A stretch of DNA of 64,000 nucleotides from NCBI GenBank assembly GCA_964497435.1, contig CAZCCD010000002.1:10050-74049 (forward strand). Reading direction: 5' to 3'. The translations under genes were made by a program, and so were the position numbers. The notes beneath the pieces were generated by a model. It searched no databases and was not told where the DNA came from. It worked only from the letters and a program-made list of their open reading frames with translations. Shown here piece by piece: positions 2,597-24,203 of this stretch. Source of the stretch: Candidatus Woesearchaeota archaeon. GTDB taxonomy: Archaea; Nanobdellota; Nanobdellia; Pacearchaeales; GW2011-AR1. Numbering within the stretch: position 1 is the first letter of the stretch; each line of letters opens with the position of its first letter.

Positions 2597-2605
2597 GAAT
2601 AAAAA

Positions 2606-3799: not shown

Positions 3800-3866
3800 A
3801 AAGAGTTAATATAAAAAGGATTTAAATATTTTTATGTGAAATTTTCATCAAAGTAAAGTAGCAAGG

Positions 3867-6467: not shown

Positions 6468-6658
6468 TATATAATTATTTTGATAATATATAAGATGTAA
6501 TTTTTATAAGATAAATCAAATTTTTATTAACTTTAATTAGATATAACTATTAAAATAGGAGTCATATTTATGTTATTCATATAATTAGTTGGAGTTAAAT
6601 TAAATCGTCGTTAAAAATAGTTTTAATATACCTTTAATACAAATCATTTATGAAACTT

Positions 6659-9600
6659 TTATTGTCTCAACCTATATAAAATCACAATGACTACTGCTGC
6701 TATTAAAACAGCAACAATAGCCCAAAGCCACCAATAGCTTTTTCCTTCTTTAGTAACTTCCTCTGTTTCACTTACAGCTGCTCCTGTGATTGGAGATCCT
6801 GCTTCCTCTTCTTGTTCACTAGAAGGTGTGCTAGCAACAGGATCTGAAGTTGCAATAATTTTTATATTTGCTTTATTCGTTCCATTTGTAGCAGCTATAC
6901 TGTTAAGGGTCACAGCAACATCATAAAAGTTATCTCCTGTAACCTCAAATTTCTTTGTTTCTCCAATAGCAAAAGTAGATGTTTGAGGCGTGCTCGAAAC
7001 TTTAACAGTAGCTGCTGCTACTGTTACACCAGTAAGCTCAACAAAATGATACTCACTATTTAAAGTAAATCTAAGTTTATCATTAACATTTAAATCCCTT
7101 GAATATCCTGAATTAAATTGTGACTCACTGACATCGTGTATTGAACCTGCAGCACCTGCACCTCCATCACTTGAGGAACTAGAAGATGATGAGCTGCTTC
7201 CTGAAGAAGGCGCATTTCCAATAACATTTGGTGCAACCCCAGAGAAATGAGGCACTCTTATGTATATCATATTTGAAGTAGTATTAATATAACAATATTC
7301 TGTATTTGTAGTTCCATTGAGATTAGAATCTGTCTTACTACATGTTCTTCCAGCAGTTGTTAAAAAGTTTCTATAACCTGTTGAATTATAAGACCTATTA
7401 TTTGAATTTCCTAAATACTGGTCAATATCTGATGTTATATTAGAAGTTGTATGGCCTAAAGAAGCGTTCCAAACAACATTCCAGTTCTCGTCGTAAAGGA
7501 AAGGTATTGAGACATTCATGCTGCCTGCATCATTGATTACAGAATCAGAATAAGGCATCCCAATTACCACATAGTCATAAACTTCTGAAGGAACAAAACT
7601 TCCAAATTGCCAGACCTGATTTGCACTACTTCCACCACTTGATGCCTGATCATTTATGACACTCTCCATTGGGGGTTGTTTAGCCGAGAACATGTCAAAA
7701 TTATAGAAAGTTATTGTTGTATTTGATGAAATAAGTTTCATCTCCATATTTATCTTTCCGGCAACCAAGGCCTTCAAAGGATTAAATTCTGAATTATTCA
7801 TAGCTGTTAAAACGCAAGAAGAGCCTGGATTTATTCCATCACAAGTTGAAGTTGATCTTATGAACCTCATGTTTATTGGAAAAGCAGAGACATTCATTTC
7901 TTCAAGCTGTCCAGAAGAATTAACTTTTCTAAATCCTAAATCACCATCTCCTTCATTCATCTGAATTATAGTTATGTTATTTACGGCTTTGCTTAGATTA
8001 ATTGTTTTTTCAGTTGGGGGGGCTTGATTAGGGAACAATTTTATCTTTGCTATAACATTTCTAGGTATTGGCCAGACAAAACTTCCTTGAGAAATCTGAT
8101 TATCCTCAATTATATAGTGTAGTTCGCCAAAAGTACTATCATTTCTAAGATACAAATCTACATGGGGGGTATCATCTGTAATTAAACCACCAGTAGAATT
8201 CACAAAGTTAATTGTCACTTTTGTTGCATTTACGTCTCCACCAGTGGCATTATTATAAGCTCCAGCAAGAGGACCTAAAGTAACATTTTGAGTCGTTGTT
8301 GCAGAAAGGCTAACATTTTGTAACATTCCCACGTACTCTGCAACACCATCATGAGTTGAATTTGTTGTGTTTTTTGCATAAAACTCTAAAAGATAATTAG
8401 AATTCAGCAAGCTTATATTATACCACGCAAATTGGCCATTCATCGTACAAGGAGGATTAGATTGATTTAATTGTGAAGTCGATGATAAATTAAGCTCTCC
8501 TGTATCTTTCATTGGAGGAACAAAACCAGTCCAAGGCATCATTCTTGGGATTATTGATGTAACATTTCTTATTGGTGTTAAATTTCCAGAAACTCCGATA
8601 CATCCTGATAGATAAACTCTTGTAACAGTCAAATTAAGTTGAACATTTAATACCTGACCAGCCACTGTAGGAGTAACTGTTGAATTTGATCTTGGAGGTG
8701 CAGGACAGTGCGTCGCATTCATAAACTGACCATTGCATGTTGACCCATTTCCAAATGAGAATCCGCTAATTCCTGTGAATGGCTCTCTTAAAACCATAAT
8801 CGTATACTGTCTATTCAATGGAACATAAACTTGCTTAACACTTACATTTGTCCTAAAATTACTTTCAATTGGAAATCCTGCTTTTTGCTCCATTACTTCA
8901 TAGCCAAATAACTGCCACCCGCCTGCAGTCGTATTTATTGCACTAATATTAATAGTTGCAGCATCTTCAACATAGAAAGTTGTTCCATTAAGTGTTGGGG
9001 GTTTCATAAATTCATTCCCTTGAAAGTCATCAAAGTCAAAACTAGGCAATGGGTAATACATCATTGCAGGGAAAGGAGGTAATATAGTCCCAACTTTAAT
9101 CACAGAACCACTTGCATTTTCATGTGTTGAATTAGAACCTTGCCTATAATACATCTTTAACAAGAACAAGTCTGCAGAGCTATTAATATTTGACAAAGTA
9201 AAAGAACCATCATTACCACTTAAAGCACTAGCTACAAAAATCTCTTTTGGCGGGCCATTTGGTTGCTCAGCAAATTGATAAATAGAAACATTGGCTCCTG
9301 TTACATTATGACCTGTTTCATTTTTTATATAACCTGAAAAAGCAAAATTAGTTGTAGTTGATGATGTTGAGGCATTCCATCCTCCATTATCCCTTGTCAC
9401 ATTAAGGCTTATATTTACATTTTGGCCTTCTACTGAAGTAACATTAAATGCAAAATTCTTTGTTGTTCCCCATTTGAATCCTCCTGCTGTTAGATTCCAC
9501 CTTAAACTACTAGAAGTATTAATAAAAGATGACCATGTCGCATTTGTGGAATTTGAATTAGAAACAAATGTAACGCCCATAGGCAATGAAAACTCAACTA

Positions 9601-10234
9601 CAGTTACATTAGATGTATCGTCTGATTGCCCTGTTATTGAAAAATTAACTTGAGTATTTGCAGATCTATTTATAGAAGTTGGATTTTGAGAAACCGCAAA
9701 AGGGGTTATACCATTTATCCTTATACTTATTGTTGTAAAGTTTATGGGAGAGTGCGAAGAATTTGAGGTTGAAATATTTAAGGTGTATGTTCCGGGGATT
9801 GATGTTGTTGCATTAAACCAAAAGTATTGCAATCCATTAGACGCCCAAAGATTAACAAGACTATTCATTGATGCATTAGTCCAATTCAAAACAGTGCTGG
9901 TAGTCATACTTGAGTTTGATGTGACATTAAATGTATTTGCTACAATAACAGTGCCATTAGAAGTGCCGTTAGAAGTATCAGTAAAAATAAAACCGACAGG
10001 AAGTACAATACTAACTAGCGTTACATTCATCGTACCTGCAACAGTATCTGTGTTATTTATAGAAATGTTATATGTAAATTCTACATTTTCATTCACTGAA
10101 AAAGATGTTCCGCTAACAGGTCCTATTATATGCGCCGCAAAAACAAGATACAGAGAAAGAACTAAAATTGCACTTACAAATAAAAATAAACCTATCTTAA
10201 TCCTACCTCTTTTATCCATCTTCCCTTTTAACAT
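6659..10234 (-). CDS. large secreted surface (S-layer-like) glycoprotein, N-terminal signal/anchor, poly-Ser linker, conserved C-terminal module plus TM anchor
   Basis: 1191 aa; N-terminal hydrophobic segment; very many N-x-S/T sequons throughout; SSGSSSSSSSSSSDGG linker; C-terminal YWWLWAIVAVLIAAVVIVILYRLRQ. Confidence 0.6.
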   Translation of the reverse strand: MLKGKMDKRGRIKIGLFLFVSAILVLSLYLVFAAHIIGPVSGTSFSVNENVEFTYNISINNTDTVAGTMNVTLVSIVLPVGFIFTDTSNGTSNGTVIVANTFNVTSNSSMTTSTVLNWTNASMNSLVNLWASNGLQYFWFNATTSIPGTYTLNISTSNSSHSPINFTTISIRINGITPFAVSQNPTSINRSANTQVNFSITGQSDDTSNVTVVEFSLPMGVTFVSNSNSTNATWSSFINTSSSLRWNLTAGGFKWGTTKNFAFNVTSVEGQNVNISLNVTRDNGGWNASTSSTTTNFAFSGYIKNETGHNVTGANVSIYQFAEQPNGPPKEIFVASALSGNDGSFTLSNINSSADLFLLKMYYRQGSNSTHENASGSVIKVGTILPPFPAMMYYPLPSFDFDDFQGNEFMKPPTLNGTTFYVEDAATINISAINTTAGGWQLFGYEVMEQKAGFPIESNFRTNVSVKQVYVPLNRQYTIMVLREPFTGISGFSFGNGSTCNGQFMNATHCPAPPRSNSTVTPTVAGQVLNVQLNLTVTRVYLSGCIGVSGNLTPIRNVTSIIPRMMPWTGFVPPMKDTGELNLSSTSQLNQSNPPCTMNGQFAWYNISLLNSNYLLEFYAKNTTNSTHDGVAEYVGMLQNVSLSATTTQNVTLGPLAGAYNNATGGDVNATKVTINFVNSTGGLITDDTPHVDLYLRNDSTFGELHYIIEDNQISQGSFVWPIPRNVIAKIKLFPNQAPPTEKTINLSKAVNNITIIQMNEGDGDLGFRKVNSSGQLEEMNVSAFPINMRFIRSTSTCDGINPGSSCVLTAMNNSEFNPLKALVAGKINMEMKLISSNTTITFYNFDMFSAKQPPMESVINDQASSGGSSANQVWQFGSFVPSEVYDYVVIGMPYSDSVINDAGSMNVSIPFLYDENWNVVWNASLGHTTSNITSDIDQYLGNSNNRSYNSTGYRNFLTTAGRTCSKTDSNLNGTTNTEYCYINTTSNMIYIRVPHFSGVAPNVIGNAPSSGSSSSSSSSSSDGGAGAAGSIHDVSESQFNSGYSRDLNVNDKLRFTLNSEYHFVELTGVTVAAATVKVSSTPQTSTFAIGETKKFEVTGDNFYDVAVTLNSIAATNGTNKANIKIIATSDPVASTPSSEQEEEAGSPITGAAVSETEEVTKEGKSYWWLWAIVAVLIAAVVIVILYRLRQ

Positions 10235-10422
10235 TTAAAGAAGAGGTATTTATAAATTTATTCTTCTTGGGTTCTGTTAAATTAAAAGGTGATAAACACC
10301 TTCAAAACGAGGATTTACCGACGGTATTTGTGTGTTGTTAGTCATCTAAAAAAGAGGTGATTACTAAAACTCTAATTTTTAGGGTTTATAGATGCTAAAA
10401 TCATGAAATTTATCATCACCCG

Positions 10423-11001
10423 TTAGCTTAACGCAACCTCTTCTTGATATTCTCTATATTCTTTAGACTGCTGAATTCTATATATAATAAAGCCAATAAT
10501 TCCTATGATTATAGAAATTATACTCCCCCACAAAACAAAGCTATTTAATCTTCTAGGATTTGGGGGTTTTTCATTTATATCTAAGAATGTTTCATTAGGA
10601 TTTATTTGTTCATATAAGAGAATTATTTTCACATTGGCCCCAGATGTGACATTATTTGATAAGGTTATACCTAATAAAGTTATTTCTAAGTCATAATAAC
10701 CATCATTTTCGAAATCAAATTTCTTTGATTCAGAAACATTAAAGATAAAATTCTCGCCATTAATTCCAATAACAACAAAGCTTGAAGTCAAACCCGCAAG
10801 CTCAACAAAATATTCTTCTCCATTTAGTATAAATCTAAATCCATCATATAAGTTAAGGTCTTTAGAATATCCTAACTTAAGCTGCTCTCCACTAACATTA
10901 TGTGTAGCTCCAAAAGAACCAAAAGCTAGAAAAGTCTCATTAGCGTAAACATTTACAAAAAACAAAATCATTCCAATTATCAAAAAAATTTTATATATCA
11001 T
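10423..11001 (-). CDS. small secreted/anchored protein carrying the same C-terminal module as the large surface protein
   Basis: Signal peptide, then HNVSGEQLKLGYSKDLNLYDGFRFILNGEEYFVELAGLT...KKFDFENDGYYDLEITL...ANVKIIL aligns residue-by-residue with HDVSESQFNSGYSRDLNVNDKLRFTLNSEYHFVELTGVT...KKFEVTGDNFYDVAVTL...ANIKIIA of 6659..10234; C-terminal TM. Confidence 0.6.
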   Translation of the reverse strand: MIYKIFLIIGMILFFVNVYANETFLAFGSFGATHNVSGEQLKLGYSKDLNLYDGFRFILNGEEYFVELAGLTSSFVVIGINGENFIFNVSESKKFDFENDGYYDLEITLLGITLSNNVTSGANVKIILLYEQINPNETFLDINEKPPNPRRLNSFVLWGSIISIIIGIIGFIIYRIQQSKEYREYQEEVALS

Positions 11002-11080
11002 CTCTTTTAAAATATTAAGAAAATAATGTTTATAATACTTACCTGGAAAATTATATAAACAAAGTTCAACAAGTTAAAAA

Positions 11081-11527
11081 ATGGAAAGAACTCTTGTCTT
11101 GATAAAGCCTGATGCAATGGTAAAAAAACTAGCAGGGAATATTATTTCTGAATTGTATATCACTGGATTAAAAATGATAGGTTTAAAATTAGTAAATGTA
11201 AAAAGAGAGTTGGCAGAAAAACACTACAGAGAACATAAAAACAAGCCTTTTTTTGAAAAATTAGTCAACCATATAACAGGAAAATTTCACAATAATGAGA
11301 GTGTAATTGCAATAGTATATGAAGGTAAAAATGCCGTGAAAAAGATAAGAAATGCTGCTGGAGAAACCCATCCAGAAGAAGCTGATTTCAATTCTATTAG
11401 AGGAAAATATGGAAGAGTTCACACAAAAACAGATTGTTTTGAAAATGTGATTCATGCATCTGACTCTCCAGCAATTGCAGAAAAAGAAATAAAATTATGG
11501 TTTAAAGAAAGTGAGATGATAAAATAA
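11081..11527 (+). CDS. ndk: nucleoside diphosphate kinase
   Basis: ERTLVLIKPDA, YEGKNAVKKIR, NVIHASDS (active-site His) motifs. Confidence 0.9.
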   Translation: MERTLVLIKPDAMVKKLAGNIISELYITGLKMIGLKLVNVKRELAEKHYREHKNKPFFEKLVNHITGKFHNNESVIAIVYEGKNAVKKIRNAAGETHPEEADFNSIRGKYGRVHTKTDCFENVIHASDSPAIAEKEIKLWFKESEMIK

Positions 11528-11544
11528 AAATTTGAGATTGAAAT

Positions 11545-11859
11545 ATGAAACGTTATGAGATTATGGTTGTTGGAGGACCGACTATAATTGCTCTAAACTG
11601 GGTAGCCGGTTCCTACGTCTTTGTGATGTACCATGAAGAGATAGAGATAGAACATTTTAAAAAACTAAAAGATTCTGATTTAGTTATACTAACTGCACTA
11701 GAAAACGGAGAAATAACAGCAAAAAATCAATTAATGATGGTTAAAGAAATGTTTAGGGATTATGTTGGGAGAGATTATTTACCTCGGCCATGGAGTTTAA
11801 TTAATGTCCACGAAATTAATCATCCAAAAGAGATTAACTGGAACGATATTCTTGAATAA
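11545..11859 (+). CDS. hypothetical protein
   Basis: ORF co-directional 18 nt after ndk; no recognisable motif. Confidence 0.3.
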   Translation: MKRYEIMVVGGPTIIALNWVAGSYVFVMYHEEIEIEHFKKLKDSDLVILTALENGEITAKNQLMMVKEMFRDYVGRDYLPRPWSLINVHEINHPKEINWNDILE

Positions 11860-11860
11860 C

Positions 11861-12856
11861 TTAATCTCCCTTCCCTTCATCAACAACACCAGCATCAGTC
11901 ACGAAGAAGACACATTCATTATCTGGAAGATTTGGAGAGTCAATTAATTTCGCAACTCTCGAACCTTGCTTCCCTCTCCTTAAATACATTCTATAGGTTG
12001 AATTGTGTCCGACAATATTCCCACCAATAGCAGTAGTCGGATCTCCAAACATCTGTGCAGGGTTTGCCATTACTTGGTTAGTAACATAAACAGCAAGATT
12101 ATGTGTCTCTGCTAATTTCATTAGTTCGTGCATATATCTATTTAATTTCTGCTGTCTATCTGCTAATTGTCCTCTGCCTGTAAATTCTGCCCTAAAATGA
12201 GCAGTCAAAGAATCTATGATAATTAATTTAATTGGCTCTCCATTCTTTATCATTTCACTAACTTTCTCTAGTAATAAAATTTGGTGGTCTGAATTATAAG
12301 CACGGGCCACTAAAATATTTTTTAAGACTTTTTCAGGATTTGCTCCAAGACTTTCTGCTATTTGTTTTATTCTTGAAGGTCTAAAAGTACCTTCTGAATC
12401 AATAAAAACAGCCTTCCCATTTGCACCTCCTTGTTCAGGAGGTAGTTGAACGTTTACAGCCAAAGACAAACCCAGCTGTGTTTTCCCGCTACCATAAGCT
12501 CCGAATGCTTCTGTTATAGCCCTGCTTTCAATACCTCTCCCCCCAAGAAGTTCATTAAGATTTTTACTTCCTGTTGTTATATGATGGATATTTTTACGCC
12601 TCTCTGCAAATTCTGTCCCCTCTATAAAGCCCAGGTCTAACATTTCTCTTGCTGCCTGAATAGCTTTTCTTGCCACAGCAGAACTAACTCCAGCAGTATC
12701 AGCAAGAGTCGAAGGACTCATGACAGCTAAAGACATTAAATCAAAAACTCCTGCACCCTCAAGTTTAGCAGCAACAGCGGGCCCTATTCCTGGAAGATCT
12801 GTAAGGCCATGTTCTCTAGATTCTTTTTCCTTGCCTTCATCTTCTTTTTTAACCAT
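11861..12856 (-). CDS. radA: DNA repair and recombination protein RadA
   Basis: N-terminal HhH (LTDLPGIGPAVAAKL), Walker A GAYGSGKTQL, Walker B LIIIDSLTAHFR, RecA/Rad51 core. Confidence 0.9.
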   Translation of the reverse strand: MVKKEDEGKEKESREHGLTDLPGIGPAVAAKLEGAGVFDLMSLAVMSPSTLADTAGVSSAVARKAIQAAREMLDLGFIEGTEFAERRKNIHHITTGSKNLNELLGGRGIESRAITEAFGAYGSGKTQLGLSLAVNVQLPPEQGGANGKAVFIDSEGTFRPSRIKQIAESLGANPEKVLKNILVARAYNSDHQILLLEKVSEMIKNGEPIKLIIIDSLTAHFRAEFTGRGQLADRQQKLNRYMHELMKLAETHNLAVYVTNQVMANPAQMFGDPTTAIGGNIVGHNSTYRMYLRRGKQGSRVAKLIDSPNLPDNECVFFVTDAGVVDEGKGD

Positions 12857-12934
12857 TTTAAGTTTCTTTTTAAAATTTTACCATAAAAATTAAACATACT
12901 GAATTTAAAAGGATTTATGCAACGCTATATATAT

Positions 12935-13321
12935 TTAATCCCCTATCTCAAAAATAACAACTGCAGCAGAGTATTTTTTCTCGTGAGAAATACTAACTGA
13001 CATGCTTCTAACTTTAAGTTTATCAACGATTTCCTTGCTTCTTCCATGTAGGATAAGATAAGGTTTTCCAGATTCTTCATGTCTTGTCTCTATATCAATA
13101 AACCTAACTCCTTGCTTATTTCCAGTCCCTAAAGCCTTCATTATTGCTTCTTTAGCAGCCCAATATCCTGAATATCTTTGAAATCTCGCTCTTCCATTAC
13201 CATGCTCACATATTTCAATTTCATAATCTGTATAATTTCTTTTAGTAAATCTATCACCAAATTTGTTAATCAATCTTTCTATTCTTTCATTATCTACAAA
13301 TTCTAACCCAGGTTTTATCAT
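12935..13321 (-). CDS. acpS: holo-[acyl-carrier-protein] synthase (4'-phosphopantetheinyl transferase, AcpS type)
   Basis: Aligns over its full length to B. subtilis AcpS: ...WAAKEAIMKALGTG...FIDIETRHEESGKPYLIL...SVSISHEKKYSAAVVIFE. Confidence 0.65.
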   Translation of the reverse strand: MIKPGLEFVDNERIERLINKFGDRFTKRNYTDYEIEICEHGNGRARFQRYSGYWAAKEAIMKALGTGNKQGVRFIDIETRHEESGKPYLILHGRSKEIVDKLKVRSMSVSISHEKKYSAAVVIFEIGD

Positions 13322-13327
13322 CTTAAA

Positions 13328-13816
13328 TTAAAATAAACCAGAAGCTCTCTCAATTAGTAAAAAAACATCAGCAATAATTAATCCTACGAAAATCCCTCTT
13401 TCTAACATGCTTCCTGTCTTAATTTTCCCTGCTGATTTCTTTTTTAAAGGATAAAAAGGAATTATTCCTTGAATTGTAAAACTGTCTGCAAGCAAATGCA
13501 ACCCATACCCAAGAAAAAATCCAAAAGCAGCAACAGGAAATATTAAAACTAAAATAACTGTCAAGGAAATCAAAAACGTAAAAGTGTGAATCATTCCTCT
13601 ATGTTTTGTAAAAAAATTCAAAATCCTTACAATTGGCTTCTTGCCTATTGAAGAAAACCTTGAATCCATGTCAGGCAAAAAAGTCGCGATTAAAGCAACA
13701 GCAGAAAAAACTACCTTATTCTCCACAGCAGGGATAAACAATAAAATAAAAAATATTGTTATGGCTAGGTGTGTTTTTATGAGCATTTTATTATAAATAA
13801 TTCTCAAAATCTTCAA
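13328..13816 (-). CDS. membrane-bound metal-dependent hydrolase, YdjM/DUF457 family
   Basis: Polytopic; THLAIT...PDMDSR...HRGMIHT...HLLADSF His/Asp pattern typical of DUF457; start may be the internal Met 10 codons in. Confidence 0.5.
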   Translation of the reverse strand: MKILRIIYNKMLIKTHLAITIFFILLFIPAVENKVVFSAVALIATFLPDMDSRFSSIGKKPIVRILNFFTKHRGMIHTFTFLISLTVILVLIFPVAAFGFFLGYGLHLLADSFTIQGIIPFYPLKKKSAGKIKTGSMLERGIFVGLIIADVFLLIERASGLF

Positions 13817-13952
13817 CAGGAATTTTAGCTAATTTTAGAACACTTTTAAGAGTTCCAATTTTCAATTGTTTATGCATGGGCACAACAGTGCCAACCTTTA
13901 CACCTGAAATATTTTTAGAAAGTCTAATATGACTTCCAGACCTCCCACTTAC
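13794..13952 (-). pseudogene. hicA: hicA toxin remnant (HicA/YcfA domain disrupted by stop codon and +1 frameshift)
   Basis: Immediately after the hicB TAA stop the same frame reads VSGRSGSHIRL; the +1 frame continues SKNISGVKVGTVVPMHKQLKIGTLKSVLKLAKIPVEDFENYL = HicA consensus (KGSHrif..p.g...tVP.H.gkdl..GTLksILKqAgl..eeF). Coordinates approximate. Confidence 0.55.
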
Positions 13953-14192
13953 TTATGCCCTGAGACTTTTCTCAATTTTGGCATGCTTTAACACCTCAAA
14001 CAATGTGATAATAGGTTTTGTGTTATCTACAGAAACCGGAAATTCTTCTAAATACAATTCAGTGGCCTCTTTTAAATTTGCAACAGCTTCTTCTACTGTC
14101 TTTCCTTGACTAACTGTTCCTATCTCAGGACACTCTGCTATAAACATATCTTCTTCCTTTCTAAGAACCGCACTAAATGTTTGTTTTTCCAT
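13953..14192 (-). CDS. hicB: HicB-like antitoxin (UPF0150 domain) with C-terminal tail encoding the first helix of HicA
   Basis: FSAVLRKEEDMFIAECPEIGTVSQGKTVEEAVANLKEATELYLEE = HicB/UPF0150 signature; tail LFEVLKHAKIEKSLRA resembles the HicA N-terminal helix. Confidence 0.65.
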   Translation of the reverse strand: MEKQTFSAVLRKEEDMFIAECPEIGTVSQGKTVEEAVANLKEATELYLEEFPVSVDNTKPIITLFEVLKHAKIEKSLRA

Positions 14193-14282
14193 GATTAAAA
14201 AATAAGAAAGAAGTATTTAAATATTATGTGTTACTTTTTCCTAACTAAAAAATCTTCTTAAGCCAATTAATAAATTTTTTTA

Positions 14283-15236
14283 TTAAACTTTCTCTTTTTC
14301 AAGCCTTTCTATAACCTCATCAACATCAACTTCCTTAACTTCATCTAATATTAATTCTAAATTGTTAAAAAATTTGTTAGTTCTCACATTTCCTATAAAA
14401 ACCATTTCCTTACCAAGCAAAGAACTTCTCTGAGAAATTAGTTCATCAGGATCGTCTAAAGCTGTTATTCCTAAACCATTAAGAGTGTTGCTAAATGCCA
14501 CTGCCCTAATGCTTTCTGTCCCATCATCAATAACAAAATTTATCAAAGCTTTTTTTTCAGAAGCAACTTTTCCATGTTCAGAACATACAAACCCTTCTGC
14601 TCCAGAAACAACTTTTTTCCCGCATTCAGAACAAACATGAAAAAATCTAGGCTCAAAAGTCTGAACAATAAATGCCCTTGTCCTTGCTACGTCAGAAACT
14701 CTAAAATCAAAAATTTTTTTCTCTCTAATAACTCTTTCAGTAATGACTCTAGAAAAATCCTCGTTGCTAATTTTTAATTCTGAAAAACTTCCAAGATGTA
14801 TTTCATTATCTCTTACAGAGCCATTTTTAATTTCAATAACGCTTCCTTCTTTTAAATCCTCATTTTCAAGAAGAGAAATATGATTAGTATCCCACAAAAC
14901 AACCTTAATATTAGAAGTATCATCAGCAACAACAAAGTTTGCGACTTTTGATTCTTCTCCTTTTCTATTCACATAATTTCTAACTATAGGCTTGTTTATT
15001 ATTTTTCCAATAACATTAGCATTCCTCATTCCAGACAACAATTCCTCAATCTTAAGTTTTTCCTTTTCAAAAGAAATTCCTAACTCAGAGGCAACAACCT
15101 GGGCAGCTCCTTCTTTAGTTATTAATCCAGAAAGTCTTGAAATCTTAGCCTCAACTCTCCTTTCTATCTCGCTAATATCTAATCCAGAAGTTTTTGATAT
15201 TCTCTCTACTATCTTATCGTAATTTTTGTCTGTCAT
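14283..15236 (-). CDS. rpa: replication protein A (ssDNA-binding protein, OB fold plus C4 zinc ribbon)
   Basis: OB-fold region (VANFVVADDTSNIKVVLWD), zinc ribbon CSECGKK...CSEHGK, C-terminal OB; archaeal RPA architecture. Confidence 0.7.
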   Translation of the reverse strand: MTDKNYDKIVERISKTSGLDISEIERRVEAKISRLSGLITKEGAAQVVASELGISFEKEKLKIEELLSGMRNANVIGKIINKPIVRNYVNRKGEESKVANFVVADDTSNIKVVLWDTNHISLLENEDLKEGSVIEIKNGSVRDNEIHLGSFSELKISNEDFSRVITERVIREKKIFDFRVSDVARTRAFIVQTFEPRFFHVCSECGKKVVSGAEGFVCSEHGKVASEKKALINFVIDDGTESIRAVAFSNTLNGLGITALDDPDELISQRSSLLGKEMVFIGNVRTNKFFNNLELILDEVKEVDVDEVIERLEKEKV

Positions 15237-15331
15237 TTTATTAAATATAAAACCAATTTTTAAAAACTTAGATGAGAAAAAACCCTTATTTATAAGTATT
15301 ATTGTTAATTAAAGAATAATCCATAATGTCT

Positions 15332-15640
15332 CTAAGATTTAGGGGAAAATACAATAATCATCGCAATAAAAGAAAAGATAAGGGCTAAAAAAGAAAATAA
15401 TAAAGTCCACCAAAACCACCTTAATTTCTTATATCTGTCTTTCTTAAAAATCACAAAATAATAAATTAACGCTCCTAAAATCCCGAGAAAAATATTTGCT
15501 AAAATCCAGACTATTTTATCACTACCATTTTTAAACTTTCTTGTTAAATTATCGATTAACATTAGTATCCAAAAAACAATTAATAAGGCAACAACTAGTA
15601 TAAGAGATATTATAAAAAAAGCTCCAAATGCTAATACCAT
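15332..15640 (-). CDS. small membrane protein with PLD nuclease N-terminal (PLDc_N) domain
   Basis: FWILMLIDNLTRKF...KIVWILANIFLGILGALIYYFV matches the PLDc_N/cardiolipin synthase N-terminal signature. Confidence 0.5.
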   Translation of the reverse strand: MVLAFGAFFIISLILVVALLIVFWILMLIDNLTRKFKNGSDKIVWILANIFLGILGALIYYFVIFKKDRYKKLRWFWWTLLFSFLALIFSFIAMIIVFSPKS

Positions 15641-15852
15641 AAAGCCAAAAAGATAAAGTAATTTATAAATTTATTGAGGAAATTGTCTCACTAACATTCT
15701 AGATTAAAGATAGATAATATAAACTTATCTTAATAAATCATTAAAATTTAAAGGCTTTTATTTATCTCTTTCTATAAATTAATAAATAAATCTACGAATC
15801 AGCAATTTGAAATAAAAGTAATATTTATAACAAATAAAATCATTATATTAAA

Positions 15853-16080
15853 ATGAAAACTAAAGATCTCTTATTAATAAAAACATCGAAAATTGTATTA
15901 TTTTTTATTTTGCCACTATCTCTTTTATTTCTCTCATTAAGCTTTCCTTCTTTAACAGGTTTCTCAATTAATTCTGAAATAAAATTAGTAAGCGGAAGTT
16001 TGCTTGCAATAGCAGTTGTATTTTTTATTTTCCTGCTTTTTCTAATACAAATCAGACCAAAACCTTATAAATCATATTAA
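15853..16080 (+). CDS. small hydrophobic protein, hypothetical
   Basis: Two predicted TM helices; ORF only. Confidence 0.25.
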   Translation: MKTKDLLLIKTSKIVLFFILPLSLLFLSLSFPSLTGFSINSEIKLVSGSLLAIAVVFFIFLLFLIQIRPKPYKSY

Positions 16081-16092
16081 TCAAATTCATTA

Positions 16093-16368
16093 ATGAATCA
16101 TGGTATAATTGGAGTTAAAATCAAGATAATGCCAGTCTCTCCGGAAGTTAACTTAAAGGAAATAGAAAAAAAAGTCAAAGAATTAATAGAAAAAAATAAC
16201 GGAATAAATAGAAAATATGAAATAGAGCCAGTTGCTTTTGGGTTAAGAGCCTTAATAGCTTTCTTTGAATGGCCAGAGGAAAAAGAACTCGAGCCTCTTG
16301 AAGAAAAAGTGAAAAAAATAAAAGATGTTTCTTCTATCCAAATAATTGACATGAGGAAAATTGCTTAA
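16093..16368 (+). CDS. translation elongation factor aEF-1 beta
   Basis: IKIMPVSPEVNLKEIEKKVKELI...EPVAFGLRALIAFF...IQIIDMRKI matches the aEF-1beta pattern (KVMPESPD...IAFGLKAL...VVDVRRL). Confidence 0.8.
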   Translation: MNHGIIGVKIKIMPVSPEVNLKEIEKKVKELIEKNNGINRKYEIEPVAFGLRALIAFFEWPEEKELEPLEEKVKKIKDVSSIQIIDMRKIA

Positions 16369-16395
16369 CCTTACAAAAAATTATCAAAATGTACT

Positions 16396-16875
16396 ATGGA
16401 AAGCATTGATAAGATTATTGGAAAAATAGATGAATTGCAATTATATGCAGAACAAAAAGCAAGAAAAATGGGATTAAGGAAAGATATTAAAGTAGGTTTT
16501 AATCCAAGAATGTGGCCGGATGGAAGCATAACTTTTCCTAACACCGACGAAGGAGCTTATTTGATACTACTAAAAAAACTTAAAGAGCCGATAGTTGACC
16601 ATGAATTAGGGCATGCATACGTTCATGAAAATTTTCCAAGATTAGAAAGATTTTTTGATAAAATATCAAAACCAGGACATATTTTAAGTGCATTAACATT
16701 TAGGGGTTCTACAGAAATTTATGTGGGTCTTATGCTCACTCTTTCTTTTCTAAGTTTATTTGATGGTTATAAGAATCTAGCTCTAATCTCAATACCCGGC
16801 TCCTCTATTCTTTTACCATATCTCACAGAAGAAGCAATAGCAGAGCATATTGGCAGAAAATATAAAAATAATTGA
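16396..16875 (+). CDS. hypothetical protein with HExxH motif (possible zinc metallopeptidase)
   Basis: DHELGHAYVH; otherwise unrecognised. Confidence 0.3.
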   Translation: MESIDKIIGKIDELQLYAEQKARKMGLRKDIKVGFNPRMWPDGSITFPNTDEGAYLILLKKLKEPIVDHELGHAYVHENFPRLERFFDKISKPGHILSALTFRGSTEIYVGLMLTLSFLSLFDGYKNLALISIPGSSILLPYLTEEAIAEHIGRKYKNN

Positions 16876-17498
16876 ATACTTCTAATAAAATGATTACAAA
16901 AAAACAAGCAGAACAAATAAAAAAACAGCTCCTTGAACAAATAGATAAGTCAGATATTCCAAACAAAGAAGAATTAAAATCTTCTATTGAATCAATGTCT
17001 CCTCAAGAACTTGAAGAATTTTTAAAGAAAAATAAATTAATAAAATCTCAAGGTGAATGCATTTTTTGTTCTATAATAGATAACAAAATTCCTTCATATA
17101 AGTTGGCTGAAAATAAAGAAGCCATTGCTGTGCTTGAAATAAATCCTATTTCAAAAGGACATACATTAATAATTCCAAAAACTCATTCAGATAAAGCATC
17201 AAAAAACTCTTACGATCTCGCAGAAGAGATGGCTTTAATAATATCTAAAGCATTTACTCTTTCTAGAGTTGACATAATTCCCTCAATTTTATTTGACCAT
17301 GAAATAATAAATGTCCTTCCTGTATACAAAGACGAGAGTCTTAATTCAAAAAGGAAAAAACATAGCGAAAAAGAGCTTGAAGAAATCCAAAACCAAATGC
17401 TTAAAGTTAAAGAAGAAAAACATCAAGAAAAACCAAAAGAAAAGAAAATCCATGTTTTTACAGACAAAGATACGTGGCTACCAAAAAGAATTCCATAA
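16872..17498 (+). CDS. HIT-family protein with degenerate histidine triad, Lys/Glu-rich C-terminal extension
   Basis: CIFCSII...LEINPISKGHTLIIPKTH is the HIT N-terminal half; triad position reads LFDHEIINVLP (only the central His retained). Confidence 0.55.
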   Translation: MNTSNKMITKKQAEQIKKQLLEQIDKSDIPNKEELKSSIESMSPQELEEFLKKNKLIKSQGECIFCSIIDNKIPSYKLAENKEAIAVLEINPISKGHTLIIPKTHSDKASKNSYDLAEEMALIISKAFTLSRVDIIPSILFDHEIINVLPVYKDESLNSKRKKHSEKELEEIQNQMLKVKEEKHQEKPKEKKIHVFTDKDTWLPKRIP

Positions 17499-18314
17499 TC
17501 CAGTATTCCATAAATAAAATAATATTAAAAGCGATATTAAAAAAACAGGGACAAAGACTATACCTTGTTTAATCTTAATTTTTTTGTATTTTTTCCTTAT
17601 TAGTTTTATCTCCTCACGATTAAGGCCTTCCCAGTTTGGCTTAATAATCTTTTTTCCAACCTTAACACTTTTATACAACCAATCTCCTTCTGTCAAAACA
17701 TTTGTTTTTGTTTCCCTAATCATACAAATACCATCGACAGTCCTAGCATAAATATAAAGATAAGGCATAATCAAAAGTATAAAACCAACTATGAGGAAAA
17801 TGCTCTCTAAAAAACCAAACAATATTATTAACAAACTAAATATCATAACAATGAATATTTTATTTTTTTCTTTTTTTAAATTTGTTTTAAATGCTTTATT
17901 AAATTCTTTATATTTTCTAAAACTCAAATAAATGGCAGTTATAATGCCATAAAATGATCCTATAAAAAGGAAAAGGAAAATAAAAATGACAAAGATTCTC
18001 AAATTATAAGAGAAAATATCTGTAAAAGGCAGAACACTTCCTAAAGCAATCATTAATTTTGCATCTCCTCCTGCAAATATCCTCGAATAATAAAAAATAT
18101 TTCCTATAGCAAAGAAAATTAGCAAGCCTATTAATCCCTGATAAAAAAATCCAAAATCATCATTAAAAAGACTGAAAAAAAACCTAAATCCTAATGCAAA
18201 AATCACTAAAGAAAAACTTATCCAATTCGGGATTTCCCTAGTTTTTATATCAGTAATGCTGGCAAAAACAATCCATATTAAAGCTAATAAAAAAAGTATT
18301 ATCACCTCTATCAT
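17478..18314 (-). CDS. archaeal prepilin/preflagellin peptidase (A24 family, PibD/FlaK/EppA-like)
   Basis: Polytopic; first Asp in ASITDIKTREIPNW, second in the FAGGDAKLMIALG (GGDxKL) motif. Confidence 0.7.
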   Translation of the reverse strand: MIEVIILFLLALIWIVFASITDIKTREIPNWISFSLVIFALGFRFFFSLFNDDFGFFYQGLIGLLIFFAIGNIFYYSRIFAGGDAKLMIALGSVLPFTDIFSYNLRIFVIFIFLFLFIGSFYGIITAIYLSFRKYKEFNKAFKTNLKKEKNKIFIVMIFSLLIILFGFLESIFLIVGFILLIMPYLYIYARTVDGICMIRETKTNVLTEGDWLYKSVKVGKKIIKPNWEGLNREEIKLIRKKYKKIKIKQGIVFVPVFLISLLILFYLWNTGLWNSFW

Positions 18315-18517
18315 GTTTTAAATAAAGAAAAAGTGTTTATAATTATTTTGCATAAAGGTTTCTTAATAAGTTAGGAATTCTTAAGTTTATTTAGATTAGT
18401 ATTAGTGATATAAAGAATTAATTATAGTGAGAAGTTTTCTATGTTAACAATTAAATAAATCTGCGAACAGAGTGAGACTAAATAATTTCTTGGGTTTTTA
18501 GTAAAAAATATCTTCAA

Positions 18518-18634
18518 TCACCTTCTAAAAACATCTAGACTTCGTTTTCCGCCGCCTTTTCTATAAGGATGTTTCTTCTTTTCCCTGAACTTACTCTTTT
18601 TCTTGTTTCTTTTTTCACTAAATCCATAATCCAT
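18518..18634 (-). CDS. candidate small basic protein (38 aa, Lys/Arg-rich)
   Basis: Hand-translated: MDYGFSEKRNKKKSKFREKKKHPYRKGGGKRSLDVFRR; below the 60-aa track threshold; coordinates approximate. Confidence 0.25.
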   Translation of the reverse strand: MDYGFSEKRNKKKSKFREKKKHPYRKGGGKRSLDVFRR

Positions 18635-18655
18635 ATTAATCAATTAAGCCTCTTT

Positions 18656-19348
18656 TTAACTTTTAAATGCTTCTTTTAAATTATCTACAAAAGCATGCAA
18701 GACACCTCTTTCAGACCTCTCCCTCATTCTTTCAAAGTCTTCTTTTTTATTCTTAGAGAAAATCCCTAGTTGTCCAATTACCTTATACACAATAACCATA
18801 AAAATAATCACTACAAAGAAAAGAAGTAATGACCAAAACCACGCATCTGTCAAAAAAACAATCCAAACAAAAGATTCTGCTATTGCTCTTAATATTCCGA
18901 TTTGAGCGAGGGCTATTGTCAAACCTAGTGATATTATAAAAGAAGTTCCTAATGAAAAAGAAAGAAAAACTGAAAATATCTCTTTAAACTTAAACACAAA
19001 AAAAATCCATAAAATAATGACAAAAAATAATGCAAGAGATAATGAATATGGCTCTCCAAAAAGAACTAAGAAAACAGGGCTTATGGCTGTAAAAAAATAA
19101 TTAAAACCATTAATAACAGGATTTTTAAGCAAAATCCTTCTTAACTCCTCCCCAATATATCCTGCATTGCTGTCAGCTATTTCTCCTTGAATATCTTCAA
19201 TTTTGTCAACTCCTTCTGTTAATTGCTCGTTAGTTTTTTCAAGATCTTGAATCTCATCTAAACCATCCTGAACTGCATTGACAAATACAAAAGAAAATGT
19301 AAATACCAATGCAAAGAATATAACAAACAAAAACCTATTTTTCCCCAT
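18656..19348 (-). CDS. membrane protein, hypothetical (N-terminal signal, acidic coiled segment, 4-5 TM)
   Basis: ORF plus hydrophobicity pattern; lies between prepilin peptidase and pilin genes. Confidence 0.4.
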   Translation of the reverse strand: MGKNRFLFVIFFALVFTFSFVFVNAVQDGLDEIQDLEKTNEQLTEGVDKIEDIQGEIADSNAGYIGEELRRILLKNPVINGFNYFFTAISPVFLVLFGEPYSLSLALFFVIILWIFFVFKFKEIFSVFLSFSLGTSFIISLGLTIALAQIGILRAIAESFVWIVFLTDAWFWSLLLFFVVIIFMVIVYKVIGQLGIFSKNKKEDFERMRERSERGVLHAFVDNLKEAFKS

Positions 19349-19383
19349 TAAAATAATAATTAATAGAAATTTTTAAACCTTGG

Positions 19384-19968
19384 CTATGGTCCTCTCCTTC
19401 GCCTTCCCCTAAAACTTCTCTGTATCTTTCTTAATCCAGTTATTGCGGCAGCAGCTTCATCAGCAGATTCAATTGCCTTAATCTCCTCAACCTGACCCTT
19501 CCTTTTTGCAGCCCATCTAGCAATCATATTGCTTCCAAGAGTCAATCCAATAAATATGATCAAAGCAACTATTAGAGCTAAAAATATTCCAATAGCTCCT
19601 AAGGCTGCTGTAATAGAAAGCATGAAAATAGCAATCTTATTAACCACCCCTATAATAGAAACAGCAATTCCAATTCCTGCGGCAATTGTATATTGTACCC
19701 ATGGAGTCCGAAAAAACATCATTAATTGCAAAATGTCATACATTCCTGCAAAAATAATAGCCATAACTATTACTCCCAAAATAACTTCTTTCCATGATCC
19801 ACCCAGGTTAAAAAAAGAAACAGCCCCTGAATACCATCTTCCAGACTCAATAGAATTATCTATAAAGACATTAACCTCTGCACTTACCAATCCTACGAAA
19901 GATAAAAAAATCCCTAGCAACAATAACAAACTAAAAAATCTTCTCTTCCTATCCTCTTTTTTATTCAT
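19384..19968 (-). CDS. membrane protein, hypothetical (signal peptide, 4 TM, Arg-rich C-terminus)
   Basis: ORF plus hydrophobicity pattern. Confidence 0.4.
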   Translation of the reverse strand: MNKKEDRKRRFFSLLLLLGIFLSFVGLVSAEVNVFIDNSIESGRWYSGAVSFFNLGGSWKEVILGVIVMAIIFAGMYDILQLMMFFRTPWVQYTIAAGIGIAVSIIGVVNKIAIFMLSITAALGAIGIFLALIVALIIFIGLTLGSNMIARWAAKRKGQVEEIKAIESADEAAAAITGLRKIQRSFRGRRRRGP

Positions 19969-20224
19969 AAATAAAATAAACTCTTAATGTTTATAAACAT
20001 TTCTTTAGAAAAATAGCAGCTCGCAATCTCGCTGATTGTATTATAAATAAGACTGATTAATAAAGAGAGAGTAAGTTAGCAAATCTTAGATATGACTATC
20101 TACAAATTTATTCATTAAAGTTAAATTAAGCATAATAATCTTGGGCATCTAAATCTAAAAAATTAATGCTCAGAAAAGATCGTAGTTATTGTTAAGCTAT
20201 AAACTTGATTAAATACATCTACAT

Positions 20225-20665
20225 CTAACTCTGAGTGTATAAATCAGGATTAAGAATCTTGCAAGTCTCTCCATTAACCTTATCGTCTTCTTTTAAGTTC
20301 TCATTATCACAAAGCTGTTCAGCTAAATTCCTAACAGTGTTAGCAGTATCGCTGCAAGAATCTTCAGGGAGCAGATGTGTGAATGTAGCATATTGTTCAA
20401 GATAATCACAATTTACAAACTGCTTCTTCCCAGCTATCTTGACTTCCTTAAACTCATTGCAATAACTAGTTTTAAGATTATTACTTCCTGAAACATCACA
20501 TGCCTTGGCAGCTACTTCTAAATCTCCTGGAAGAATTCCAATTTTTCCAAATATAAAATCCCATCCTTTAATAAATCCGACAGCAACAACAACTAATACA
20601 ATAATTCCCAGTATAAGCAATATTAAAGTTGAAATAGGCAGTCCTTGAGCCTTTTTATTAAACAT
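20225..20665 (-). CDS. type IV pilin-like protein with archaeal class III signal peptide
   Basis: From the internal Met: MFNKKAQG|LPISTLILLILGIIVLVVVAVGF (basic N-region, Gly before a hydrophobic stretch); Cys-rich globular part. The upstream 29 codons of the track ORF are probably not translated. Confidence 0.6.
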   Translation of the reverse strand: MFNKKAQGLPISTLILLILGIIVLVVVAVGFIKGWDFIFGKIGILPGDLEVAAKACDVSGSNNLKTSYCNEFKEVKIAGKKQFVNCDYLEQYATFTHLLPEDSCSDTANTVRNLAEQLCDNENLKEDDKVNGETCKILNPDLYTQS

Positions 20666-20734
20666 CTTAAGCCTCTCTTTCATATATAGGAATAACAAAC
20701 AAGTGTTTATAAATATTTTTAATCTGTTTGACTC

Positions 20735-20880
20735 ACTCGTAAACTCGCTCATCCATTAGTATTACTTTGAATCAGATTTCATTGTTTACTTTTATTGGAT
20801 ATAATCAATCATCAAATTGTTTTTTATCAACAATCATATAAATTTATGAGCGAAGCGAACTTATTCATTGATTGACGTTT
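20735..20880 (+). repeat. inverted repeat pair (ctcgctcat ... atgagcgaagcg) about 100 bp apart at the 5' end of pilin gene 20225..20665
   Basis: gactcactcgtaaactcgctcatcc ... tatgagcgaagcgaac; GC-rich islands in an AT-rich spacer. Confidence 0.35.
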
Positions 20881-20886
20881 GATTTC

Positions 20887-22515: not shown

Positions 22516-22545
22516 TTCTATAAAAGAGATAGCTAATTAATAAAT

Positions 22546-23508: not shown

Positions 23509-23603
23509 TTAAGCAGCTCCTAATTTTTTTAACAAAAGATACATTCCTATGAATAAAAGCAAAAATAATGCAATCCACATTATATATTTTCCAAGATTTT
23601 CTG

Positions 23604-24202: not shown

Positions 24203-24203
24203 T

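What the first reader, a model, noticed from the sequence alone, without database searches (positions are those of the whole stretch)
13794..14192. hicB-hicA locus in which the HicA toxin domain is split by a stop codon and a +1 frameshift
The 79-aa ORF is a clear HicB/UPF0150 antitoxin, but its last ~20 residues (LFEVLKHAKIEKSLRA) already look like the first helix of HicA. Right after its TAA the same frame encodes VSGRSGSHIRL, the GSH motif region of HicA. The next frame then encodes SKNISGVKVGTVVPMHKQLKIGTLKSVLKLAKIPVEDFENYL, the rest of the HicA fold including the conserved His. So an ancestral HicB-HicA fusion or overlapping pair has had its toxin inactivated while the antitoxin domain stays intact. 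This may instead reflect sequencing errors in A-rich runs.
Basis: seen in the sequence. Interest (0 to 1): 0.55.

Follow-up and report, generated by a model that had tools for sequence, protein, structure and literature searches.

The report
Decayed hicBA toxin-antitoxin cassette
This is an ordinary two-gene toxin-antitoxin cassette in a low-GC archaeon: a 37-base deletion has killed the toxin gene (hicA), while the antitoxin gene (hicB) beside it is intact.

Summary
On the minus strand, 14192..13953 encodes an intact 79-aa small HicB. The TAA at 13955..13953 is its native stop, at the same position as in hundreds of ~78-aa relatives. The HicB tail is not a HicA helix. It is conserved because hicA's start (ATG 13984, MPKLRKVSGHK) overlaps it in another frame.

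The closest intact relative (Tara marine contig, HicB 84% identical) has a 76-aa hicA overlapping hicB by 32 nt. Against it, the window lacks 37 nt: hicA codons 12-23 (helix alpha1) plus one base. As a result hicA stops after 11 codons (TAA 13951..13949). Codons 24-76 (13952..13794, GSH motif included) survive as one uninterrupted stretch that now lies, by accident, in hicB's frame. There is no frameshift between GSHIRL and the rest.

Three per-run assemblies are 100% identical here, so this is not a sequencing error. Decay of this kind is common in the family: 19-21 of 78 hicB-anchored loci have a broken hicA, but only 1 of 77 hicA-anchored loci lacks hicB.

Verdict: a pseudogenised Class 2 hicBA module with an orphan antitoxin. 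This is a known phenomenon of low interest.

The parts
14214..14221 (-). TATA-like box TTTAAATA, 21 nt upstream of the hicB ATG. It is the putative archaeal promoter of the cassette, giving a leaderless or near-leaderless transcript.
   Evidence: Read from the sequence. Comparable TATA-like boxes lie 20-32 nt upstream of hicB in archaeal relatives L004, L008, L007, L009, L013, L021, L032, L045. The motif occurs only 26 times on both strands of the 64-kb window. Its function is inferred, not shown.
13953..14192 (-). hicB: an intact 79-aa small antitoxin without a DNA-binding domain (native stop TAA at 13955..13953).
   Evidence: ORF. It is 84% identical to P0004, which sits next to an intact hicA. 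Family alignment A2. The profile hits PDB 2yzt (E 1e-4) and HicB 6g1c/6g1n (E 0.014-0.022). AlphaFold2 gives a beta-beta-beta-alpha core with pLDDT above 90 for residues 11-50 and a low-confidence tail. Foldseek matches 2yzt, HicB 6g1n (rmsd 1.2 A over 45 columns, prob 1.00) and 3k6q. Pfam UPF0150/HicB_lk matches are below threshold (21 bits against 27).
13949..13984 (-). hicA 5' stub: ATG 13984..13982, 11 codons (MPKLRKVSGHK), then a premature TAA at 13951..13949. It overlaps the 3' end of hicB in another frame.
   Evidence: (frame 0). It matches the N-terminus MPKLRKISGHK of the intact HicA of L004 and the family consensus MPxLRKxSG.
13949..13955 (-). Deletion junction. 37 nt present in the intact relative are missing here (hicA codons 12-23, VIKILCNKFDFT, i.e. 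helix alpha1 and the loop to beta1, plus 1 nt). The exact breakpoint is ambiguous within these few bases.
   Evidence: DNA alignment A1 and the codon-level comparison with 13 intact relatives. The lesion could be one 37-nt deletion, or a 36-nt deletion between GTA(A) repeats at codons 12 and 24 followed by a 1-nt loss.
13794..13952 (-). hicA remnant: 53 codons equivalent to residues 24-76 (beta1 with the G-S-H motif, beta2, beta3, alpha2). It has no start codon and now lies in hicB's frame. Double stop TAATAA at 13793..13788.
   Evidence: Pfam HicA_toxin 36.7 bits. tblastn 68% identity to L004 HicA residues 24-76, E 1.8e-20. Alignment A3 shows that all 11 invariant residues are kept, while the near-invariant G41 is replaced by V.
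13328..13786 (-). Flanking gene ydjM (152 aa). Its ATG lies 1 nt after the remnant's double stop (TAATAA 13793..13788, A 13787, ATG 13786). It is context, not part of the cassette.
   Evidence: Pfam YdjM 68.7 bits; gene calls in L001-L003.
14283..15236 (-). Flanking gene for an OB-fold (RPA-like) protein, followed by a T6 run at 14252..14247 (putative archaeal terminator). It is context, not part of the cassette.
   Evidence: Pfam OB-fold matches; T-run read. The terminator role is inferred.

Best explanation
The locus is a decaying type II toxin-antitoxin cassette of the compact 'Class 2 hicBA' type: a small HicB without a DNA-binding domain lies upstream, and hicA overlaps its 3' end. It sits between housekeeping genes of a low-GC (about 30%) archaeon.

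Shown:
- hicB is intact.
- hicA has lost 37 nt. This removes the 12 codons of helix alpha1 of its alpha-beta-beta-beta-alpha RNA-binding fold and shifts the frame.
- Translation from hicA's own ATG therefore ends after 11 codons.
- The remaining 53 codons have no start codon.
- The TAA between 'HicB' and the 'GSH region' is simply hicB's normal stop. The remnant lies in hicB's frame only because of the length of the deletion.

Inferred:
- No active HicA RNase can be made by any reading. The native start gives an 11-aa peptide. An internal GTG/ATG start gives 30 aa without the catalytic His. Readthrough of the TAA gives HicB fused to a HicA that lacks alpha1.
- hicB is still transcribed from the cassette's own TATA-box promoter, as an orphan antitoxin.
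- Toxin-first decay is the only viable order of loss, because losing the antitoxin first would free the toxin.
- The orphan HicB is most likely a neutral leftover. At most it gives cross-protection against incoming related hicBA cassettes.
For: 1. Homology of both parts.
2. The closest relative with an intact pair (L004/L005): hicB 78 aa, hicA 76 aa, 32-nt overlap.
3. The 37-nt gap in alignment A1 and the codon-level view.
4. The single reading frame and the position of the stops.
5. TAA is the main stop codon of this genome (36 of 53 long frames), and hicB ends where its relatives end.
6. The window is 100% identical to three per-run assemblies.
7. Family surveys. Of 78 informative hicB-anchored loci from species-representative genomes, 19 have a clearly broken or missing hicA and 2 are unclear. 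Of 77 hicA-anchored metagenome loci, 76 have a full hicB. Fisher p about 6e-6.
8. Mild signs of relaxed constraint in the remnant. It is 68% identical to L004, against 86% for HicB, whereas intact pairs of this subfamily show roughly equal values. pN is 0.195 against a median of 0.141. G41 is replaced by V.
9. Literature. The Class 2 hicBA definition is in PMC10865869. The HicA fold, its catalytic His, and RNA binding by alpha1 and alpha2 are in PMC6159526. Abundant orphan antitoxins are in PMC7192599.
Against: - No expression or read-level data were available, so activity of the promoter and of HicB is inferred.
- The nearest intact relative is only about 80% identical in DNA, so the ancestral sequence and the exact breakpoint are reconstructed, not observed.
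- Apart from the deletion, the remnant has no further stop or frameshift over 159 nt. That fits a recent event, but it would also fit some residual constraint.
- The three Logan assemblies come from runs with neighbouring accession numbers, probably one study. They are probably the data behind the MAG as well, so they exclude an assembler error but not a population-specific allele.
- Pfam matches of HicB itself are below the gathering threshold.
Confidence: 0.9

Rival explanations
1. Sequencing or assembly artefact: the real genome carries an intact hicA, and the lesion is an indel error in an A-rich run.
For: The region is AT-rich, and the junction lies next to a short A run (CATAA|GTAA). MAG assemblies do contain frameshift errors.
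Against: The lesion is 37 nt long, not a homopolymer slip. Contigs assembled separately from three sequencing runs (SRR12113383, SRR12113430, SRR12113384) are 100% identical to the window over 1448-2389 nt, including the lesion.
Confidence: 0.03
2. A naturally fused HicB-HicA protein (Class 12 type) interrupted by a nonsense mutation, or still produced at a low level by readthrough of the TAA. This would give a single-chain antitoxin-toxin or a HicB-HicA' chimera with a function of its own.
For: The remnant is in frame with hicB. Fused small-HicB/HicA proteins exist (Class 12, PMC10865869; P0002). In-frame HicB::HicA-C-terminal chimeras made by other deletions recur in databases (P0003, P0054/P0121, P0065/P0090, P0120, P0076). 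The remnant has no second lesion.
Against: The TAA is at the position where intact 78-aa HicBs of bicistronic loci stop. hicA's own ATG and its first 11 codons are still visible in the other frame, which shows a bicistronic ancestor. A readthrough product would lack helix alpha1 of the dsRBD fold. TAA is the commonest stop in this genome.
Confidence: 0.04
3. A functional split or recoded toxin: programmed frameshifting, or two-piece complementation, restores an active HicA from the stub and the remnant.
For: The catalytic G-S-H motif and all 11 invariant residues of positions 24-76 are retained. The stub and the remnant are adjacent.
Against: Twelve codons (VIKILCNKFDFT equivalent), highly conserved in all 20 intact relatives aligned (xxIKILCNKxGF), are absent from every frame. 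No frameshift can recreate them. The stub is only 11 residues long.
Confidence: 0.01

Closest known systems
Class 2 hicBA modules (classification of Gerdes 2024, mBio, PMC10865869)
   Same: The gene order is hicB then hicA. HicB is small (79 aa, within the 63-103 codon range) and has no recognisable DNA-binding domain. The genes overlap, and the class is frequent in archaea (loci).
   Different: Here hicA is a pseudogene (37-nt deletion, alpha1 lost, frame shifted), so the module is no longer a toxin-antitoxin pair.
Class 12 fused HicBA (same paper) and database fusions such as P0002
   Same: A small HicB domain is followed in the same frame by HicA sequence.
   Different: The window has hicB's native stop between the two parts and lacks HicA alpha1. 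The in-frame relation is a by-product of the deletion, not a designed fusion.
Streptococcus pneumoniae HicBA (PMC6159526) and other solved HicAB complexes (6g1n/6g1c B. pseudomallei HicB; 1whz T. thermophilus HicA-like)
   Same: The toxin has the same fold (alpha-beta-beta-beta-alpha with a catalytic His in G-S-H). The N-terminal HicB domain is the same one that blocks the toxin's active site.
   Different: Those HicBs carry a C-terminal RHH or HTH DNA-binding domain, and their toxins are intact. The window's HicB has only the N-terminal domain plus a tail that AlphaFold2 models with low confidence and no secondary structure (pLDDT about 60).
Orphan antitoxins / degrading TA loci (e.g. Klebsiella survey, Horesh et al. 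2020, PMC7192599)
   Same: An antitoxin gene is retained next to a degraded toxin. A proposed role is as an anti-addiction element.
   Different: The host is archaeal and the module is a HicB-type antitoxin. No evidence was obtained here for or against any retained role.
TTHA1756 (PDB 2yzt), a UPF0150-family small protein of Thermus thermophilus
   Same: It is the best sequence-profile and structural match of the window's HicB, and it is a similar single-domain protein of 67 aa.
   Different: Its function is uncharacterised, and identity is only about 24%.

Membership tests
HicA toxin (Pfam PF07927) | Sequence matches the family HMM above the curated threshold | tested here: met
   The remnant scores 36.7 bits against the gathering score of 27, E 4.5e-9. 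Only profile positions 17-58 of 58 are matched (13-58 when the upstream sequence is included).
HicA toxin (Pfam PF07927) | Complete alpha1-beta1-beta2-beta3-alpha2 dsRBD-like fold | tested here: not met
   The 12 codons that encode alpha1 and the loop to beta1 in intact relatives are deleted and absent from all frames. The fold definition is from PMC6159526.
HicA toxin (Pfam PF07927) | Conserved catalytic His in the G-S-H motif | tested here: met
   GSH is present in the remnant (RSGSHIRL). G29 and H31 are invariant and S30 is nearly invariant (>=90%) in alignment A3, and all three are retained.
HicA toxin (Pfam PF07927) | Translatable full-length ORF (start codon, about 60-85 aa) | tested here: not met
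   The native ATG leads to a stop after 11 codons. The remnant has no start codon, and the longest internal ORF is 30 aa without the His.
HicA toxin (Pfam PF07927) | RNase activity / growth arrest neutralised by HicB | not testable with these tools
   This needs expression assays.
HicB antitoxin, small DBD-less type (Class 2) | N-terminal HicB / UPF0150 fold (three strands packed against a helix) | tested here: met
   The AlphaFold2 model has strands at 9-13, 16-21 and 26-30 and a helix at 33-50, with core pLDDT above 90. Foldseek matches 2yzt, 6g1n HicB (rmsd 1.2 A over 45 columns, prob 1.00) and 3k6q. The Foldseek E-values are weak (0.015-0.35) because the domain is small.
HicB antitoxin, small DBD-less type (Class 2) | Sequence matches the HicB-type HMMs above the curated threshold | tested here: inconclusive
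   PF21748 scores 21.1 bits and PF15919 scores 19.6 bits, against cut-offs of about 27. NCBIfam gives nothing relevant. Close homologues carry precomputed PF15919/PF21748/PF24113 hits and source names 'HicB family antitoxin'. The family profile against PDB gives 2yzt at E 1e-4 and HicB 6g1c at E 0.014.
HicB antitoxin, small DBD-less type (Class 2) | Encoded directly next to a hicA gene | tested here: met
   The hicA stub and remnant are adjacent in the window. Homologous hicB genes are followed by a full-length hicA in about 57 of 78 informative loci and precede hicA in 76 of 77 loci.
HicB antitoxin, small DBD-less type (Class 2) | Size of 63-103 codons and no DNA-binding domain | tested here: met
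   The protein is 79 aa and has no HTH, RHH or Phd Pfam match at E <= 0.01 (the one Phd-type match, PF12910 PHD_like, has E 0.047, 14.1 bits against a cut-off of 27). Residues 51-79 are modelled without secondary structure at pLDDT about 60.
Class 2 hicBA operon (Gerdes 2024) | Bicistronic order hicB then hicA, closely linked or overlapping | tested here: met
   The hicA ATG at 13984 lies 32 nt inside hicB, as in L004.
Class 12 fused HicBA | HicB and HicA domains in one uninterrupted ORF | tested here: not met
   A TAA at 13955..13953 separates them. It is hicB's family-typical stop.

The most novel reading that the evidence does not exclude
HicB::HicA-C-terminal chimeras may be more than debris. 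The window's arrangement (HicB, a TAA, then an in-frame HicA lacking alpha1) and the deletion-made in-frame chimeras seen elsewhere could represent repeated domestication of the toxin's HicB-binding C-terminal part. One example is the 87-aa Methanothrix protein P0121, found on 152 contigs. Such a chimera might act as a self-contained decoy that titrates or senses related HicA/HicB proteins. In the window it would be produced through low-level stop-codon readthrough.
Probability: 0.04. Interest if true: 0.45.

Novelty: new member of a known kind. Interest (0 to 1): 0.14.

Why it matters
It matters little on its own. It is one more example of the expected toxin-first decay of a mobile toxin-antitoxin cassette, here in an uncultured low-GC archaeon.

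It has three practical uses:
- Annotation. The 79-aa ORF should be called hicB and the downstream stretch a hicA pseudogene. Neither a fusion nor a recoding event should be annotated.
- The conserved tail of this HicB family is a dual-coding overlap with hicA's N-terminus. It should not be read as a protein motif.
- The surveys give a rough figure for how often this cassette type is found half-dead: about a quarter of hicB-bearing loci, against about 1% for the reverse case.

Tried and rejected
1. NCBIfam scan of HicB, the remnant and the readthrough product: only noise.
2. Sequence search of the intact relative's HicA against PDB: one weak hit, 1whz at E 0.037. It is useful only as orientation.
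3. dN/dS of the remnant against nine intact relatives: synonymous sites are saturated (pS 0.55-0.90), so the ratio says nothing about the time since the deletion. Only the modest excess of pN is reported.
Rfam found no RNA gene in the 64 kb. The archaeal assignment rests on RadA/Rad51 with an HHH domain and on the relatives' taxonomy.
5. Stop-codon reassignment of TAA: rejected, because TAA closes 36 of 53 long frames and hicB relatives stop at the same place.
6. A second hicA or hicB copy in the window that the orphan HicB might serve: none found (tblastn).
7. A compositional anomaly marking an island: none. GC is 0.28-0.36 across the locus, like its flanks.
8. The automatic 'intact' classification of hicA over-called L008 and L081, which have internal stops. 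It was corrected by eye.

Full report
**What is in the sequence**

All features lie on the minus strand.
- The ORF at 14192..13953 encodes 79 aa (MEKQTF...EKSLRA) and ends in TAA at 13955..13953.
- Reading on in the same frame gives VSGRSGSHIRLSKNISGVKVGTVVPMHKQLKIGTLKSVLKLAKIPVEDFENYL, followed by TAATAA (13793..13788). From the ATG to the final stop there is one frame with a single internal TAA (frame 2).
This stretch overlaps the last 30 nt of the 79-aa ORF.

**Are the homologies real?**

They are.
- The 53-residue stretch scores 36.7 bits against Pfam HicA_toxin (gathering score 27, E 4.5e-9). It covers only profile positions 17-58 of 58.
- The 79-aa protein matches UPF0150 and HicB_lk_antitox only below threshold (about 20 bits). 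Other evidence for its identity is strong:
  - It has 1874 database relatives. Most are 74-82 aa, and many are named HicB family antitoxin by their sources.
  - A profile of 28 of them hits PDB 2yzt (E 1e-4) and HicB structures 6g1c and 6g1n (E 0.014-0.022).
  - The AlphaFold2 model has a confident beta-beta-beta-alpha core (residues 9-50, pLDDT above 90) and a low-confidence tail.
  - Foldseek places the core on 2yzt, on B. pseudomallei HicB 6g1n (rmsd 1.2 A over 45 columns, probability 1.00) and on 3k6q.

**What the intact state looks like**

- The closest relative of the 79-aa protein outside this population is P0004 (84% identical). It comes from a Tara marine metagenome contig (L004; L005 is a second copy of the locus).
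- There, hicB (78 aa) is followed by a 76-aa hicA that starts 32 nt before hicB's stop, in the next frame. Its product is MPKLRKISGHKVIKILCNKFDFTTSGRSGSHVRLSKKTPEGKIGTVVPLHKELKIGTLKNILKLAKISTEEFSEYL.
- This is the 'Class 2 hicBA' arrangement of Gerdes 2024: a small HicB of 63-103 codons without a DNA-binding domain lies upstream of hicA, and the genes often overlap. The class is common in archaea (PMC10865869).
- The conserved tail of these HicBs (HAKIEKSLRA and variants) is the other-frame reading of hicA's conserved N-terminus MPxLRKxSG. It is not a relic of a HicA helix.

**The lesion**

- In the DNA alignment with L004/L005, the window matches from upstream of hicB to the end of hicA, except for a single 37-nt gap right after ...TCAGGGCATA.
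- The missing bases are hicA codons 12-23 (VIKILCNKFDFT) plus one base. In 20 intact relatives this segment is the highly conserved xxIKILCNKxGF block.
- By position, the block corresponds to helix alpha1 and the loop before beta1 of the alpha-beta-beta-beta-alpha dsRBD-like fold. In that fold alpha1 and alpha2 make the RNA contacts, and the His of G-S-H is essential for RNase activity (PMC6159526).
- Because 37 is not a multiple of three, hicA's frame runs into TAA two codons past the junction. Codons 24-76 fall, by accident, into hicB's frame.
- The breakpoint is ambiguous within 13949..13955. The event may have been one 37-nt deletion. Alternatively it was a 36-nt deletion between GTA(A) repeats at codons 12 and 24 (both are Val-GTA in several relatives) followed by a 1-nt loss.
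- TAA is also the main stop codon of this genome (36 of 53 long frames), so recoding is not an issue.

**Is it an artefact?**

- Contigs assembled independently from three sequencing runs (Logan: SRR12113383, SRR12113430, SRR12113384) carry the same locus. They are 100% identical to the window over 2389, 1953 and 1448 nt, lesion included.
- A 37-nt gap is also not a homopolymer error.
- The runs probably come from one study, so this shows that the allele is real in that population, not that it is universal.

**Consequences (inferred)**

No reading yields a HicA with a complete fold:
- The native start gives 11 residues.
- The longest internal ORF (GTG 13883) gives 30 residues without the catalytic His.
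- Readthrough of hicB's TAA would give HicB fused to a HicA without alpha1.

hicB keeps what looks like the cassette's own promoter:
- A TTTAAATA box lies at 14221..14214, 21 nt before the ATG.
- It is preceded by a T6 run (14252..14247) after the upstream gene's stop.
- TATA-like boxes 20-32 nt upstream of hicB recur in archaeal relatives.

The remnant ends 1 nt before the ATG of ydjM (13786): the double stop TAATAA occupies 13793..13788 and a single A (13787) follows. Transcription from the hicB promoter may therefore now run into ydjM, acpS and radA, all on the same strand.

**How recent is the event?**

- The remnant has no further stop or frameshift in 159 nt and keeps all 11 invariant positions of residues 24-76. 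The near-invariant G41 is replaced by V.
- The remnant is 68% identical to L004, against 86% for the HicB core. In intact pairs of this subfamily the two values are about equal.
- The proportion of non-synonymous differences is 0.195, against a median of 0.141 in intact pairs. Synonymous sites are saturated, so a proper dN/dS is not informative.
- Together this suggests an event that is recent relative to the split from the nearest known relative, with mild subsequent drift.

**How ordinary is it?**

1. The hicB-anchored survey used 80 loci from species-representative genomes (Woesearchaeota, Nanoarchaeia, Aenigmatarchaeota, Methanomicrobia, and also Chloroflexota, Acidobacteriota and others).
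   - Of these, 78 have enough downstream sequence to judge.
   - About 57 carry a full-length hicA overlapping hicB by 8-41 nt.
   - Nineteen have a clearly broken or missing hicA:
     - frameshifts: L020, L027, L032, L035, L066, L085;
     - nonsense mutations: L008, L081;
     - truncations or deletions: L011, L036, L037, L042, L048, L052, L058, L059, L071, L075, L084.
   - Two loci are unclear (L070, L079).
   - Some frameshifts may be MAG errors. The eleven truncations and deletions are not typical assembly errors.
2. The reciprocal survey used 80 metagenome loci anchored on HicA. It found a full hicB upstream in 76 of 77 informative loci.
3. The asymmetry (Fisher p about 6e-6) is what the biology of type II systems predicts, because a cell can lose the toxin first but not the antitoxin.

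Orphan antitoxins and degrading TA pairs are well documented in bacteria (PMC7192599).

**Verdict**

The anatomy is corrected: there is no internal frameshift in the GSH-to-C-terminus part, the stop is native, and the real lesion is a 37-nt deletion of alpha1 that also shifts the frame relative to hicA's start.
- The interpretation 'overlapping pair with inactivated toxin and intact antitoxin' stands. The 'fusion', 'HicB tail equals HicA helix' and 'sequencing error' readings do not.
- This is a pseudogenised member of a known class. Interest is low.

Noticed in passing
Database proteins P0003, P0120, P0054/P0121, P0065/P0090, P0076: Several different deletions have produced in-frame chimeras of the HicB N-terminal domain with C-terminal pieces of HicA. 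Examples are ...LYLEEF|VVSGQTGSHVRMSK......EEFPLKI|TGTVVPMHDELKPGTL... and ...EEFP|LHGELKIGTL.... The 87-aa version is annotated as a MULTISPECIES Methanothrix protein and was seen on 152 contigs. It could be inherited debris or a domesticated protein.
   Followed up: partly
window 13953..13984, and the same region in L004 and about 57 other loci: The conserved C-terminal tail of the 78-aa HicB subfamily (HAKIEKSLRA) is dual-coding. It is the alternative-frame reading of hicA's conserved N-terminus MPKLRKVSG, within an overlap of up to 32-41 nt. Other subfamilies overlap by only 8, 14 or 17 nt, and their HicBs end earlier (...YA*, ...AKA*).
   Followed up: partly
L119:1201-1428 (metagenome contig Ga0247842_10001876): This is the only one of 77 hicA-anchored loci with no recognisable hicB upstream. 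A full-length hicA (LPGLRNFSGEETVKILCNKFGF...) is preceded by unrelated GC-rich sequence. It may be an orphan toxin or may have a different antitoxin.
   Followed up: no
L082:737-931 and 1102-1284; L056:111-254; L074:2939-3112; L010:1118-1234 (minus): Some loci carry extra HicB-like or HicA-like matches within about 1 kb of the main cassette (tandem hicB paralogues, a second hicA, an opposite-strand hicA fragment). This suggests local clustering or repeated insertion of hicBA cassettes.
   Followed up: no
L063 (Methanoperedens), L026, L027: Otherwise full-length HicAs have changes in the catalytic motif: G-N-H in L063 and L027, and G-G-H in L026. These may be further routes to toxin attenuation.
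   Followed up: no
locus list: Near-identical cassette architecture, with 57-76% HicB identity, occurs across domains: DPANN archaea, methanogens, Thermoplasmata, Chloroflexota, Acidobacteriota, Bacteroidota, Planctomycetota and Desulfobacterota. This indicates extensive horizontal transfer of this Class 2 hicBA subfamily.
   Followed up: no
window 6659..10234 (-), 10423..11001 (-), 16396..16875 (+): A 1191-aa ORF and two smaller ORFs near the locus have no Pfam match at E <= 0.001. A 1630-aa ORF at 57649..62541 (-) was not examined.
   Followed up: no
window 1..64000: No Rfam family reaches its gathering score anywhere in the 64 kb on either strand. No tRNA, rRNA or other known RNA was found.
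   Followed up: no
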